The notes below the pieces were generated by a model, which worked only from the letters and a program-made list of their open reading frames with translations, did not search any database and had not been told where the DNA came from. A stretch of DNA of 63,868 nucleotides, filler included, from Octopus bimaculoides (taxonomy: Eukaryota), in NCBI RefSeq assembly GCF_001194135.2. It is 5 parts of 5 records of this genome, joined end to end, with 100 filler letters (N's around TTAATTAATTAA, not from the genome) between each part and the next. Parts side by side here need not be neighbours in the genome. Positions count along the whole stretch, not along the records: positions 31,293 to 54,488 come from NC_068991.1; positions 54,589 to 56,652 come from NW_026423840.1; positions 56,753 to 62,420 come from NC_068986.1; 2 more parts are not named here. One strand, 5' to 3'. The position numbers and the translations under genes are program-made. This document shows, one piece after another, positions 48,776 through 60,540 of this stretch. Each line of letters opens with the position of its first letter. The first letter of the stretch is position 1.

Positions 48776-49397
48776 TATTAAGGAATAGTGGTACGACAAG
48801 GCACCAATGTTTGCTGGAAATAGCAGTCGATAATGATACGACGTTATGTAAAGCTTCACTTAAATATGTACTGTCAAAGATGTATGCGGGCAGCGAACAT
48901 AAAGAATTGTCGTCTTACCTCGAGGCAGAACATCGTAAAAACGGACAATCCAGAATCGATAATCTAGGACCCGATTATTAATTTTGGGTTGTCCGTTTTT
49001 ACGATGTTCTGCCTGGGATAAGACGAAAATTTTTTATGTTCGCTGCCCGCATACATCTTTGTCAGTGTAAATTTAAGTGAAGTTTTACATAGCGTCGTAT
49101 CGTTATCGACTGCTATTTCCAGCAAACATTGGTGCTTGTCACACCACTATTTCTTAATAATCCTACCTTTACGCTGCTTAATGCTTCTGGAAAGTGATAC
49201 TATTGTATTGCAATGATATTTTAAACTTCTATAGAAAACTTTTTCACCGATCTCGGTTGTTAACGACTAGGCGTTCAGCCGAATATATTGGTAAGTTGTA
49301 TCGATACTTTAAAATTTCGTCACAGGTGACTCTAGCTGGTGAGGACTAATCAAATTTACGATAACAACTGTGTTTTGGAAAGTTCGAAACTCGGTTA
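48776..49397. mobile_element. Unclassified repeat, copy 1: ~384-bp foldback palindrome (48776-49159) plus unique arm
   Basis: ~188-bp arms with a ~8-nt loop; 49160-49397 is homologous in reverse to 60050-60330. Confidence 0.9.
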
Positions 49398-49900
49398 CAT
49401 ATGTTTCATAGCGATTGGAACCTGAGAAGTGGTAAAATCCAAGTGAGGTGTATACCACCGGCTACTCTTCAGGCCAAGGATACCTTGATTAGATTAAAGA
49501 CTACATTGTCGCAAGGAAGTACATGATGACGCAAAGATTCAATCAGAATATATATATATACATCATGGGTCCCACACATTTTCCATCTGCCAAATTTACT
49601 CCCGGATCCAGGACTATATTAGAAGACCTGTACCCTAGCTCATTATTGCTCTCGTGTATGGCTAACTTAAAGCATTTTCTAGCAGGTCTATTCGAAATAT
49701 AAAGTAGTTGAGTTAGTGTGTTGATCTGTGATGGGAACTTGAATTTTGCATTCAAGGGGAAGGAGGTAAGTGTTGGCTGGTTTGTGACACAAGCACCTTT
49801 TAGACTGTGTTGATGGAATATTTTCTATATTATACATGGCGTTCATGCACACATGCACACACACACATATACACATATACCACATGCATGTATATACATA

Positions 49901-50880
49901 TCTACCATTCACAATCTTATTTCCTCCTCTTTTTTATCTTCCACCACCTCCAACTCCATTGCCTGTAACCCACATACCTTCGCCATCTACTTCCTAAAAC
50001 CCACAAACCCAAAACAACCCTGGCCTCCCCATCGTTTGCCCATCGTTTGTGCCTGCAGCTGCTCCATCGAACTCATCCCCAAATATCTCGACCTTGTTCT
50101 CGCACCCTTCATGGCTTCATATTTATGACACCAACAATACTCTTCGTCTCTTTAATTCTTTCTCCCTTCTTCCCGGCCCCTTCAGACTCTTGTTCATCCG
50201 TGACATAAAAATCCTTATACACTCTAATCCCTCATAATGAAGGCTTCCTTGCAATAACATACTTCCTGGATTTTCTTCTTTATCAACCTAATGCTTCCTA
50301 CTTTCCTCCGTTTAGCTGAACTTGTACTCTCTTTGGGTTGTTTCTTGTTCGCGGGTGAATTTTATTATCAGTTCGCAGAAGTAACCATAGGAAAGAGAAT
50401 GGGCTCTAAATATGTGAACCTTTTCGTTGGCTATGCTGAAGCTCGAATATTTTTCCAATTCGCTGATCCCATTTCTGAACTGGTCGTTACATTAACGTGC
50501 GACCTCATATCAGTGCGACCTCACTCTTCTGCGAATATCTCGGCTCCTCCCTCTCTTCCATCCAGTCCTTTCATACCACTCTCGAATTCTCATGTTTTGT
50601 CTCCAACACCTCCATCAACTGTCTCAACGCTTCTGTTGCCATCCACCAATTCTCTCCTAACATCTCCATCCATTATAAACCCAAAGATTCTCAACTTCTC
50701 TTCCCACCCTATACACGCCAAACTGTCCATCCCTCACTCTCAGTTCCTCTGTGTCTGCCGGCTCAGTAGCGGCAACCATGACATTGAGACACGCTCTTAA
50801 CTCATGGCTCGTCACTTCACCCAACGAGGATACACCGCCACCGTATCCAAAACACCTTCGCCCGTGCACGAGACAAGAAC
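49901..50880 (+). mobile_element. Decayed Penelope-like element reverse transcriptase
   Basis: STIHNLISS, PIVCACSCSIELIPKYLD, DTNNTLRLFNSF, LYTLIPHNEG, LRLAELVLS, IGKRMGSKYVNLFVGY, YKPKDS, SSHPIHAKLSIPHSQF, HFTQRGY; frameshifts and stops. Confidence 0.9.
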
Positions 50881-51371
50881 CTACACGCACGTTCACACGC
50901 ATACATTAGCTGCTATACACATACATCTGAACACACACACACGCGCATATACACGTACGTATGTGTATCCATACACATATATAAGCTAACATATTCTTCA
51001 TATTCACACACATGCTTGCCATAAATACATATACACGTGTTATCCTCATATATACACACTCTCTTGCGTAGACACACTTTAACCAAGTTACTGCTGTCTC
51101 CCATGCCGGCAACTACTTCCATCCTTCTGGTCAATTCAACATATGAAATCGTTAATCCAGAGGGGTTTTTTTTTTTGTCTCCACTTTTTTTTCTCTTCTA
51201 CCCATTCTTTTCTCTCCTCATTCCTTTCTGTACAGGCGAATAGGCTCGAAATGTGAAAGATTTTTCCATTTTTTCTCAGCGTAAAACTAAAACAACTCGT
51301 TTGTTGTTCCCTCGCTGCCTTTGTCTTCGGTTTTTGTGTTTTGTAAAATTTTAAACTATAAATGTGTATTA

Positions 51372-57460: not shown

Positions 57461-58449
57461 ATTAGATGTTTAAAACAGATGCCGTTGACCAATGGCTGGA
57501 ATCAGAAAATATTTTTAAATATTCGACATCAGCAATACAATGCTTAACGATTTCCCATTTAATGATTTCCCTCTTTAATTATATGTATTTTTAATTACAA
57601 TATGTCATGGACCAAAGCTAAATATTCTTAATGACCACTTGCAATAACTACAATGTACATCAAAAATATGCGTCATAATGTTTATTTGTTTATTCTGCCA
57701 TTTATATGTTTATATGTTGCTATCATTCGCACCTGCTGTGTTCACAATCGCCCTGCTGTTACTTTATCATTAACATTTTATATTAATTCATCCTCGCAAT
57801 ATGTCAAAACGAGAGAAAGTCAAAGTGACGAATGATGTTGATAAAATTTAATAAACGGTGTGATGAACTGTGTTTAATTTCGTCCCTTCTTCAAATCAAA
57901 GCTAAAGTCTATTATTACATTCGTTCCTGCAAGTCTCTAAAATAATTGCTTGTAATATTTGTTTCCTTTAATTTTCACATGAAGCTCCTATATTTAGATG
58001 AAGGACAAATAATTGATTTATACCTGTGGAAGTAAATTGGATTCTATTATAAATTGAAACAAGACAGAGGAGACGATTAATTACAAACACCGATACCATT
58101 TTAAGATATGAATTAATGTGGCTCCTGTAAAGATAGAAGTCTAGACAAAATGTATTTCAGTAATTATCTACTTTCATGAGAGCGACAATAATAAGTGAGT
58201 GGACAAGATTCTTATCTGCTAACTGTGAGACCGATGTTCTGTATCTTGTTAAATGTCAATTGTGTCAGAGTTCAAATCTCAAGCAGCCCAGACCAAATAG
58301 CTGTGAATCAGCGCGGTAAAGTTTAGACAAACACATCACTCTAAATGTCAGTGGTAGCAGTGTAAAATTAACAAATGGATCGTTTGCTTAGAATGCTAAG
58401 CTCAGCTTCATCTGAGGATATATAATGTATAGCTTGGAGAAAGACCGGC

Positions 58450-59600
58450 CTTTTAAAACCGATTGCTTTAATGAATACAGTACGAAGACAGTGATGCCAC
58501 TGTCATCCAAATGCTCGCCACTTGTGTCACCAAGACTATTCAGAGAATGTATCAAGGTAACTGTGGAGAAAGTGAAGCTTTATGCACATATTTGCACGCA
58601 GCTTTTGAAATTTCTCCAGCATGTGGTCGGCTATTTCGGCATAACCGGAAGCTTTCTTGTTACTCAGAAAGTCATTTACAAGTATTACAAATGAATTCTA
58701 TGCTGTTGCTTCAACGCAATTCATTGAATTTAAAAAGTCATCATCTGTCATCAATTTTATGATCCTCCAACTTTTATCATGTAACTGCTCAGACCAGGAA
58801 ATGTGCAGTAGATATGTTGTTGGCACTCCGTCGCTTACGGCGACGAGGGTTCCAGTTGATACGATCAACGGAACAGCATGCTCGTGAAATTAGCGTGCAA
58901 GTGGCTGAGCACTCCACAGACACGTGTACCCTTAACGTAGTTCTCGGGAATATTCAGCGTGACACAGTGTGACAAGGCTGACCCTTTGAATTACAGGCAC
59001 AACAGAAACAGGAAGTAAGAGTGAGAGAAAGTTGTGGTGAAAGAGTATAGCAGGGTTCGCCACCATCCCCCTGCTGGAGCCACGTGGAGCTTTAGGTGTT
59101 TTCGCTCAATAAACACTCACAACACCCGGTCTGGGAATCGAAACCGCGATCCTATGACCGCGAGTCCGCTGCCCTAACCATTGGGCCATTGCACATCCAC
59201 GCAGTAGATATAGTGAAAGCATGGTCCATCTTTATCGAGAGCTTTAACAAACTGCTTCATAATACCAAGTTTGAGACGGAGTGGAAGTAGGATCATCCTT
59301 GATTGAACTAAGGGTTCTTCAACCATATTAAAAGACCCTGAAACTAATGTTCGCTGCAGCCAGCCTTTAATCATCCAATATATTTTTTTTTTTGGCCCAC
59401 ATACACAAAAATGCATAGATATTTGATGTTTCCACTTTATTGCTCCAGGAGAAAATTGTTCAGCTTAAAGCCCACGCGTAAACCCACCCATGGTACCTAA
59501 ACCCACTCACTGATGATTGGTGAGTTTATGTATCATGAGTTTTATTTTTTTTAAGCAACATATTTCCCACAATTCTCCACTTTCGGAATTACCGAAGAAG
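58450..59600 (-). mobile_element. Decayed Chapaev-3-like transposase relic, interrupted by a SINE
   Basis: NFLLEQxSGNIKYLC, EPLVQSRMILLPLRLKLGIMKQFVKALDKDGPCFHYI | YCTFPGLS, DFLSNKKASGY, LRANMCIKLHFLHSYLD; same family as 35266-36738. Confidence 0.85.
58816..59200 (-). mobile_element. Full-length tRNA-derived SINE family C (385 bp) with an 11-bp TSD
   Basis: TSD gcagtagatat at 58805-58815 and 59201-59211; A-box tggcccaatggtt and B-box ggtttcgattcc; ends ...gagtgccaacaac. Confidence 0.95.
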
Positions 59601-59702
59601 CGATAATCCAAGCCCATGTAATTTTATTCAAAATAAGTGGACACAAAAACCATTGCTATCAAATAAGAGGTCCATTTTAAACGCCTTTCATATCTTTTAT
59701 CT

Positions 59703-60540
59703 TTAATTTTTTATTTGTTTCAGTCATAAACTCCGGCCATGCTGGGGTACCGCCTTGAAGATCTTATAGTCGAATATATCAATACCAGTACTTTTTTCTT
59801 AATCTAGTATTTATTCTATCGATTCCTTAGGTCAAACCGCTAACGGGGACATAAACACACCAACATCCTATATATAGGAAATAGTGGCACAATAAGGCAA
59901 CAATGTTTGCTGGAAATAGCAGTCGATAACCGTGCGACGCTGTGGAAAGCTTCACTGAATGTATATAGGCAAAGATGTGTGCAGGCGGCGAACATCAAAA
60001 AAATTTTCGTCTTACCTCTAGGAAGAACACCGGATAAATGGATAACCTAGTACTCAAGTTTCGGACTTTCCAGAATACGTTTGTTATCATAAATCTGATT
60101 AGTCTTCTTCAGCTAGGTTCACCTAAGATGAAATTTAAAATATCAATATCGCCAGTATATTCGGCTGATACGCCTAGCCATAAATAAAACAGAGATCAGT
60201 GAAAAAGTTATATAAAAAAAAATTATAAATATTTTTGTAATACAATAGTATTATTTTCCAGCTAAATAAAGTACCGTAAACATTGGTATCTTGTTATGCC
60301 ACTATTTCCTATCTATAATTTTACCTCTACGGTGCTTTATTTAGCTGGAAAATAATACTATTGTATCGCAATAATATTTATAATTTTATATAGACATATA
60401 GATACGACAAGCTTCGTTCAGTTTCCGTCTACTAAATCCACTCACAAGGCTTTGGTCGGTCCGACGTTATAGTAGAAGACACTTGCCCAGGGTGCCACGC
60501 CGTCGAAGCAAGCTTCTTACCTCACAGCCACTCCTGCACC
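59703..60540 (-). mobile_element. SINE family B split in two (59703-59868 and 60403-60540) by an insertion
   Basis: 3' half cagtcat...ggccatgctggggtaccgcc...acaccaacatc; 5' half gtttccgtctac...acttgcccagggtgcc...acagccactcctgcacc. Confidence 0.88.
59875..60392. mobile_element. Unclassified repeat, copy 2 (homologous to 48776-49397) with a terminal foldback
   Basis: taggaaatagtggcac...caatgtttgctggaaatagcagtcgataac...cgtcttacctc matches 48780-48930; 60211-60278 is inverted at 60328-60392. Confidence 0.9.

What the first reader, a model, noticed from the sequence alone, without database searches (positions are those of the whole stretch)
48776..60392. Circularly permuted ~420-bp repeat; both copies end in a foldback
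Seen: with blocks T (34 bp, taggaaatagtgg...caatgttt), A, C, B and a short linker x, copy 2 reads T-A-C-B (59875-60278) then inverted [B-end, x, T] (60278-60392). Copy 1 read on the minus strand is C-B-x-T-A (49397 to ~48973) then inverted [T, A]. The B-x-T junction is in both copies and the A-C junction is in copy 2, so the parent unit closes into a circle or tandem array. Inferred: a rolling-circle or tandem (Helentron- or satellite-like) element whose insertions end by strand switching. It could be mistaken for an ordinary MITE because T and T' bracket copy 2. I do not recognise the family.
Basis: partly seen in the sequence, partly recalled or inferred. Interest (0 to 1): 0.72.

Follow-up and report, generated by a model that had tools for sequence, protein, structure and literature searches.

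The report
Hammerhead retrozyme with Penelope-type insertion scars
The two copies belong to an old family of hundreds of short non-coding repeats that carry a predicted self-cutting RNA motif and often sit as two arms joined head to head, a layout already known from Penelope-like jumping genes, whose enzyme likely copied them from RNA.

Summary
The two copies lie on different chromosomes. They belong to a dispersed family whose 422-nt non-coding unit closes into a circle and carries a type I hammerhead motif on the strand opposite to T-A-C-B, with compensatory stem changes. Of 130 elements mapped, 62 are two arms joined head to head and none tail to tail. The inner joints vary. The outer ends are fixed: 166 of 192 fall at two sites about 76 nt apart, mostly in TA-type microsatellites, and 42 of 43 classifiable two-arm elements use one of each. 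That is the tandem, inverted, one-sided-tail layout of Penelope-like elements (PLEs), which the genome holds in numbers. Best reading: a non-LTR retrozyme copied by a PLE enzyme primed from both cut target strands. Not shown: cleavage, RNA circles, the partner PLE. The family looks old (nearest copies about 88% alike). The scan noted similar elements before on other DNA of this genome. It is a new member of a known kind; the near-strict one-of-each rule and the long tail are the useful extras.

The parts
48776..48974 (-). Copy 1, arm ending at fixed site A (ribozyme-sense on minus; circle positions c416 to c174-180)
48965..48974 (.). Copy 1 inner head-to-head joint; the arms start about 7 nt before and 3 nt after the predicted ribozyme cut; 14-nt duplication variant of the unit
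   Evidence: read from the sequence
48973..49394 (+). Copy 1, long arm, almost exactly one monomer; its site-B end is missing
49329..49397 (+). Copy 1 hammerhead remnant (core A6 changed to G, 3' strand of stem I lost); folds no better than shuffles (z -0.7)
49393..49549 (-). Piece of a second high-copy repeat with a hammerhead-like motif, joined 3' end to 3' end with copy 1 and truncating it
59869..60280 (-).
60044..60119 (-). Copy 2 type I hammerhead motif: 7-bp stem I, CUGAAGA core, extended stem II with an A10.1-C11.1 mismatch, GAAA, minimal stem III; predicted cut between 60051 and 60050
   Evidence: z -3.2
60278..60392 (+). Copy 2, short arm c141 to site B (c256); 3-nt overlap with the long arm at the joint
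60318..60392 (+).

Best explanation
The repeat is a 422-nt non-coding unit with a predicted type I hammerhead, likely a non-LTR retrozyme that was copied from RNA into TA-rich DNA by the enzyme of a Penelope-like element. Shown: the unit is circularly closed; arms may run more than once round it; two-arm insertions are always head to head; their outer ends lie at two fixed sites about 76 nt apart, nearly always one of each. Inferred mechanism: the unit is transcribed as multimers, the hammerhead cuts them, and multimers or ligated circles serve as template. The PLE endonuclease cuts both strands of a TA microsatellite. Each cut strand primes reverse transcription at its own internal start site (A or B). 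Both cDNAs stop at variable places and are joined at their inner ends, often through 1-9 nt of overlap. The stretch between the two start sites is the PLE tail.
For: Hammerhead: consensus core and stems. On 62 aligned copies 86% of cells pair, against 19-34% for slid controls; 76 cells change on both sides, against 33.5 in shuffles; whole subfamilies swap C-G for U-A in stems I and II. The best Rfam hit on one copy's motif is Hammerhead_1, E 0.008. Architecture: 62 of 130 head to head, 0 tail to tail; 166 of 192 sense 3' ends in windows covering 16% of the circle, against 27 of 192 5' ends; 42 of 43 pairs are A+B, 21.5 expected. The set picked only by an internal exact 21-mer gives 112 of 129 ends and 31 of 32 pairs. 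A microsatellite or gap follows 125 of 166 ends, against 32% background. Inner overlap is 1-9 nt in 31 of 62. The two arms of one element are closer to each other than the median in 41 of 46. 5' ends near the predicted cut: 16 in 14 nt against 34 in the flanking 80 nt, p 0.002-0.009 over three windows. PLE machinery is in the genome: 112 GIY-YIG matches among 150 scored and an RT plus GIY-YIG frame. In one autonomous family, 5 of 6 readable ends stop in TA at two sites about 40 nt apart. Literature: PMC8557442 (tandem plus inverted copy, tail at one end, TA targets), PMC11167929 (two internal RT start sites bracket the tail; both strands cut and extended), PMC7229834 and bioRxiv 10.64898/2026.07.22.740005 (retrozymes, PLEs as likely mobilisers).
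Against: No partner PLE was found: a profile of the family gave only one short, weak hit (32 nt, E 0.03) in 50 GIY-YIG loci. No RNA evidence of circles or cleavage: about 6% of three runs gave 12-70 laid reads each, none 99% alike, in both directions, with no joints and no pile-up of ends at the cut; reads cover the cut site. The Rfam score, 20.4 bits, is below the gathering score of 34, and a scan of 20 whole loci gave no hammerhead hit. The core is intact in only 32 of 68 arms, and in 17 of these with the first stem II pair. The covariation shuffle ignores relatedness. 68 of 130 elements show one orientation only, and 26 of 192 ends lie outside A and B. The windows for A, B and the cut were drawn after seeing the data. 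The tail is about twice the 30-40 bp reported. No non-repetitive target duplication of 7 nt or more in 42 elements. Sequence alone cannot tell whether site A is an RT start or a resolution point.
Confidence: 0.85

Rival explanations
1. Same element and same PLE enzyme, but only one priming event: cDNA starts at site B, its end folds back or switches template, and it copies itself back to site A, where the endonuclease resolves the intermediate.
For: This gives A+B without two primers. 7 of 62 elements have both arms starting within 8 nt of each other (3.1 expected). Arms share variants. Self-priming was proposed for PLE inversions in PMC3846280 (passages).
Against: Self-copying needs the A arm to lie inside the B arm. 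Many B arms are short and stop within the tail while the A arm covers other sequence: 13 of 42 B arms have their 5' end in c181-256, e.g. L129, L136, L163, L178. In copy 2 neither arm contains the other.
Confidence: 0.2
2. The copies are 5'-truncated ends (pseudo-LTR stumps) of an autonomous PLE rather than a free non-coding retrozyme.
For: Stumps would have the same layout. Only 50 GIY-YIG loci out of 2390 first-look candidates were examined, in a gap-rich assembly.
Against: The unit closes on itself after 422 nt: 31 arms exceed one unit, and 80 of 130 elements cross the cut position. Longest stop-free frame 91 aa. With verified PLE frames, 4 of 124 family loci had a tblastn hit, none leading 5' into an arm; one element sits beside an older RT relic.
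Confidence: 0.07
3. A Helentron-associated (HINE/DINE-1-like) DNA rolling-circle element with tandem central repeats.
For: Asymmetric inverted ends (one end runs about 76 nt beyond the inverted block), tandem units and no clear target duplication superficially fit PMC4067079.
Against: HINEs have 12-15 bp subTIRs, a 3' palindrome and TT targets. Here the inverted arms are 20-760 nt with variable joints, targets are TA-type, CTRR lies near only 7 of 166 ends, and a covarying hammerhead would have no role.
Confidence: 0.04
4. A foldback-type DNA transposon with long tandem inverted arms, whose copies are internal deletion derivatives made by gap repair.
For: Fixed outer ends with variable inner joints and microhomology are also what abortive gap repair gives (recalled).
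Against: The two ends are offset by 76 nt rather than matched, no target duplication is seen, 68 of 130 copies have one arm, no copy holds unique internal sequence, and the unit is a ribozyme-like RNA.
Confidence: 0.03

Closest known systems
Metazoan non-LTR retrozymes (Cervera and de la Pena 2020, PMC7229834; Li, Clavereau and Pollet 2026, bioRxiv 10.64898/2026.07.22.740005)
   Same: Non-coding, low GC (37%), type I hammerhead with minimal stem III and palindromic UCGA loop, tandem monomers, strongly self-paired circle (z -4.3), coexistence with PLEs.
   Different: 422 nt is slightly above the 170-400 nt of PMC7229834 though inside the 51-972 bp of the preprint. No array of two full units or more was seen (maximum 789 nt). 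No circles or cleavage shown. The family looks inactive. In the text I read or searched, neither paper analyses head-to-head insertions or tails.
Insertions of endonuclease-bearing Penelope-like elements with inverted pLTR and tail (Arkhipova 2013, PMC3846280; Craig 2021, PMC8557442; Frangieh 2024, PMC11167929)
   Same: Partial tandems, a head-to-head inverted copy, a tail at one end, AT-rich or (TA)n targets, a hammerhead upstream of the end sites, microhomology at 5' joints.
   Different: No RT or GIY-YIG frame; tail about 76 nt instead of 30-40; end sites 180 and 256 nt past the cut; no partner with matching ends found.
Non-autonomous Chlamys PLEs such as MRC1 (PMC8557442)
   Same: Non-coding PLE dependants with pLTRs and head-to-tail multimers.
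   Different: Those resemble their autonomous partners at the 3' end and lack canonical hammerheads; here a hammerhead is present and no partner is known.
Helentron-associated HINE / DINE-1 (PMC4067079)
   Same: Asymmetric inverted ends, tandem internal repeats, no clear target duplication.
   Different: Short fixed subTIRs, 3' palindrome, TT target, DNA intermediate; none of these fits here.

Membership tests
Non-LTR retrozyme | Type I hammerhead in each unit | tested here: met
   Motif, stems and compensatory changes; Rfam Hammerhead_1 E 0.008 but below gathering; core intact in 32 of 68 arms
Non-LTR retrozyme | Short non-coding monomer in tandem or circular permutation, no LTR | tested here: met
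   422-nt circle, 31 arms over one unit, longest stop-free frame 91 aa
Non-LTR retrozyme | Expressed as circular and linear monomer RNA | tested here: inconclusive
   Sparse reads from diverged relatives, no joints, no ends at the cut
Non-LTR retrozyme | Self-cleavage | not testable with these tools
   Only indirect: excess of 5' ends near the predicted cut
PLE-mobilised insertion | Partial tandems with a head-to-head inverted copy | tested here: met
   62 head to head, 0 tail to tail of 130
PLE-mobilised insertion | Two staggered 3' ends with the tail at one end only | tested here: met
   166 of 192 ends at A or B; 42 of 43 A+B; tail about 76 nt, longer than the reported 30-40
PLE-mobilised insertion | AT-rich or (TA)n target | tested here: met
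   125 of 166 ends followed by microsatellite or gap against 32% background
PLE-mobilised insertion | Autonomous partner sharing the 3' signals | tested here: inconclusive
   PLEs abundant; none of 50 loci matches convincingly
Autonomous PLE | RT plus GIY-YIG frame | tested here: not met
   No such frame in or leading into the arms
Helentron / HINE | 12-15 bp subTIRs with fixed internal order | tested here: not met
   Inverted arms of 20-760 nt with variable joints
Helentron / HINE | Insertion in TT or T-rich sites | tested here: not met
   Flanks are TA, CA, TAGA repeats; no empty sites were compared
Helentron / HINE | Rep/helicase partner with the same ends | not tested
   No helicase search was run
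MITE / foldback DNA transposon | Matched terminal inverted repeats and a target duplication | tested here: not met
   Ends offset by 76 nt; no non-repetitive duplication of 7 nt or more in 42 elements, though a TA-only duplication cannot be seen

The most novel reading that the evidence does not exclude
These insertions record double priming on one small circular RNA: a PLE dimer starts one cDNA at site A and one at site B from the two cut target strands, each runs round the circle, and each tends to stall where the other began (18 of 42 A+B elements have an arm stopping inside the tail, which is 18% of the circle). The family would then be a large natural read-out of the unresolved second half of the PLE cycle, and scar-level proof that animal retrozymes ride on PLE enzymes.
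Probability: 0.3. Interest if true: 0.62.

Novelty: new member of a known kind. Interest (0 to 1): 0.4.

Why it matters
Retrozymes and PLE-type inverted insertions are both known, so the element is not a surprise. Its value is as data. Published support for PLE mobilisation of animal retrozymes, in the papers I read, rests on shared hammerheads, co-occurrence and pLTR phylogeny. Here a protein-free retrozyme carries the full PLE insertion scar, with counts: head to head only, and one end at each of two sites in 42 of 43 cases. That rule constrains how PLE inversions and tails form, which PMC8557442 calls undefined, and gives a 422-nt template with two predicted start sites for the in vitro assay of PMC11167929. 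It also warns that such repeats are easily mislabelled as MITEs or Helentrons.

Tried and rejected
Rfam scan of 20 whole loci: only microsatellite-driven miRNA hits and a U6 pseudogene; the hammerhead appeared only on a 141-nt stretch. Partner search: single-sequence and profile searches against 50 GIY-YIG loci gave nothing convincing. A shared CCACTATTT in one PLE family lies about 300 nt from that family's ends and was rejected. A first tblastn was polluted by non-coding repeats and was redone with verified frames. Two same-strand copies 3.4 kb apart (L168) looked like flanking pLTRs but are a local duplication without a coding frame. Target duplications: not resolvable in microsatellites. 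No RNA holder was listed for L010. The idea that copy 1 runs on into a PLE frame was rejected: what follows is another repeat. The idea that copy 1's joint with the second hammerhead family is an RNA end-to-end event was set aside: the exact junction occurs once in the genome, and about 11 nt of imperfect homology explains it. A test of linkage between the 14-nt duplication and the stem I variant failed because the pattern matched one arm only. Lap-versus-lap similarity within arms (26 of 28 below the median) does not separate a circle from a multimer. Rows dropped: duplicate loci by sequence, L067 (local duplicate) and L038 (identical to L037); 11 of 73 hammerhead regions with internal indels were left out of the alignment.
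Full report
Observation. The window is a pack of five stretches, and two joints lie inside the finding. Copy 1 maps to G000:C11 and copy 2 to G000:C6. The genome has 2.34 Gb in 145,327 contigs, and the two searches had 829 and 846 first-look candidates, 40 scored each. An exact internal 21-mer occurs 92 times, against 0 for the reversed control. It is exact in 17 of 75 arms found by BLAST, which suggests roughly 400 arms (a rough figure).

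The unit. A script consensus closes into a 422-nt circle. I number it from the predicted ribozyme cut, on the strand opposite to T-A-C-B. It is 37% GC, folds better than shuffles as a circle (z -4.3 sense, -5.5 antisense), and has no stop-free frame over 91 aa. It contains a type I hammerhead motif: a 7-bp stem I, CUGANGA, an extended stem II, GAAA, a one-pair stem III with a palindromic UCGA loop, and GUA or GUC at the cut. PMC4209133 describes this minimal stem III form as working through dimers (part 1 of 4 read). On 62 of 73 hammerhead regions, 86% of cells pair against 19-34% in slid controls, and three pairs show subfamily-wide double changes in 18-21 copies each. The shuffle control does not correct for relatedness. 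Rfam gives Hammerhead_1 as best hit on one copy, E 0.008, below its gathering score, and nothing on whole loci. The core is intact in 32 of 68 arms, and a large subfamily, including copy 2, has an A-C mismatch at the first stem II pair. One subfamily has a 14-nt duplication right after the cut.

Architecture. I mapped 130 unique elements (duplicates, L067 and L038 dropped). 62 have two arms whose 5' ends meet inside, 68 show one orientation, and none is tail to tail. Of 192 outer 3' ends, 93 fall at site A (c155-187, mostly c168-180) and 73 at site B (c228-262); these windows are 16% of the circle and hold only 27 of 192 5' ends, so this is not a general alignment artefact. Among 43 two-arm elements with both ends classed, 42 are A+B and 1 is A+A; 21.5 would be expected from free pairing. 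The other 19 have at least one end elsewhere. The subset chosen by the 21-mer alone gives the same picture: 112 of 129 ends and 31 of 32 pairs. A microsatellite or gap follows 125 of 166 A/B ends, against 32% of random places. Inner joints vary: 31 of 62 overlap by 1-9 nt, 13 are near blunt, 15 have a gap and 3 overlap by 10 or more. Arms of one element are more alike (median 13% different) than arms in general (20%) in 41 of 46 cases, so they share a source. 5' ends are about 2.5-fold enriched around the predicted cut (post-hoc windows), but 80 of 130 elements cross it, so most templates were circles or uncut multimers. Nearest other elements are 88% alike at the median and at most 94%, apart from one identical pair that is probably an assembly duplicate: the family is old.

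The two copies. Copy 1 has an A arm and a one-monomer arm that lost its B end where it abuts a second repeat family. That joint lies within about 3 nt of both families' predicted cut sites, but it is found once by exact pattern and sits in about 11 nt of imperfect homology, so I read it as a later deletion or joining.

Mechanism. PMC8557442 describes PLE insertions as partial tandems with an inverted 5'-truncated copy, a 30-40 bp tail often at one end only, and (TA)n targets (passages). PMC3846280 gives the same for rotifer PLEs and proposes self-priming (passages). PMC11167929 shows in vitro that a PLE protein cuts and extends both target strands, prefers AT-rich DNA, starts reverse transcription at two internal sites that bracket the tail, and is predicted to be a dimer (parts 1-2 of 4). 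Sites A and B fit those two start sites (inference). The one-of-each rule then means each target strand uses a different site. 13 of 42 B arms stop within the tail, as in L1 twin priming (recalled), and 8 of 42 A arms stop there after a lap, which favours two primers on one RNA over pure foldback; the first search favoured long arms, so the second figure is biased. True foldbacks are 7 of 62. The genome supplies the enzyme class: 112 GIY-YIG matches among 150 scored, an RT plus GIY-YIG frame, and one autonomous family in which three ends stop in TA at one site and two stop about 40 nt further on, one being unreadable. No partner was found among 50 loci.

RNA. No RNA holder was listed; three raw-read runs were offered by species label. 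About 6% of each was read. Copy 2 drew 42, 48 and 12 partial reads, none 95% alike; a second subfamily drew 70, 40 and 33. Both mate directions occur, there are no joints, and no ends pile up at the cut. Relatives are transcribed at a low level, probably as passengers; circles are neither shown nor excluded.

Comparison and novelty. The family meets the sequence-level definition of non-LTR retrozymes (PMC7229834: section 14 and passages; bioRxiv 10.64898/2026.07.22.740005: parts 1-3 of 5 and a term search). It fails the Helentron/HINE features of PMC4067079 (passages). The preprint has no occurrence of 'tail' and uses 'inverted' only in a reference title. Six library searches showed no paper describing this family or counting end pairs in this way; the library lacks most subscription papers and Repbase, and I opened no supplements, where PLE consensus files of PMC8557442 could hold the partner. 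Earlier scan notes report similar hammerhead, head-to-head elements on other DNA of this genome and call it an octopus; I formed my reading before that look-up, and no tool here named the organism. Verdict: real, explained, a new member of a known kind, interest 0.4.

Noticed in passing
window 49393-49549 (minus); L202-L210: A second abundant repeat (at least 40 copies at 80-92%, 1393 first-look candidates) with a hammerhead-like motif by eye (no Rfam hit); several copies end in microsatellites about 45 nt past the predicted cut and some are inverted pairs. It joins copy 1 near both cut sites, once in the genome.
   Followed up: partly
window 9562 (+), 15279 (-), 28383 (-), 61891 (-): Further hammerhead-like motifs of other repeats by a relaxed descriptor; the last is probably chance.
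   Followed up: no
window 50212-50860 (+): Decayed RT-like relic, weak tblastn match to a PLE RT piece (E 2.5e-5), about 800 nt from copy 1; not linked to it.
   Followed up: partly
L094, L096, L099, L105, L108, L111, L188, L195: An autonomous PLE family with a long 3' region whose copies end in TA repeats at two sites about 40 nt apart.
   Followed up: partly
L191:751-1206; L192:2146-5095: A young head-to-head hammerhead pair (98% alike) of another family, and a PLE flanked by 700-nt inverted repeats at 93.5%.
   Followed up: no
L003:1130-1232 (-): U6 snRNA pseudogene about 190 nt from a family member.
   Followed up: no
circle c131-140 and c207-217: A 10-bp inverted repeat predicted to close a multi-branch fold around site A; a candidate protein-binding signal, covariation not tested.
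   Followed up: no
L168 (G000:C1:100.83-100.84 Mb); L037 and L038: A local duplication holding two family copies 3.4 kb apart, and an identical pair on a small contig and a chromosome, probably an assembly duplicate.
   Followed up: partly
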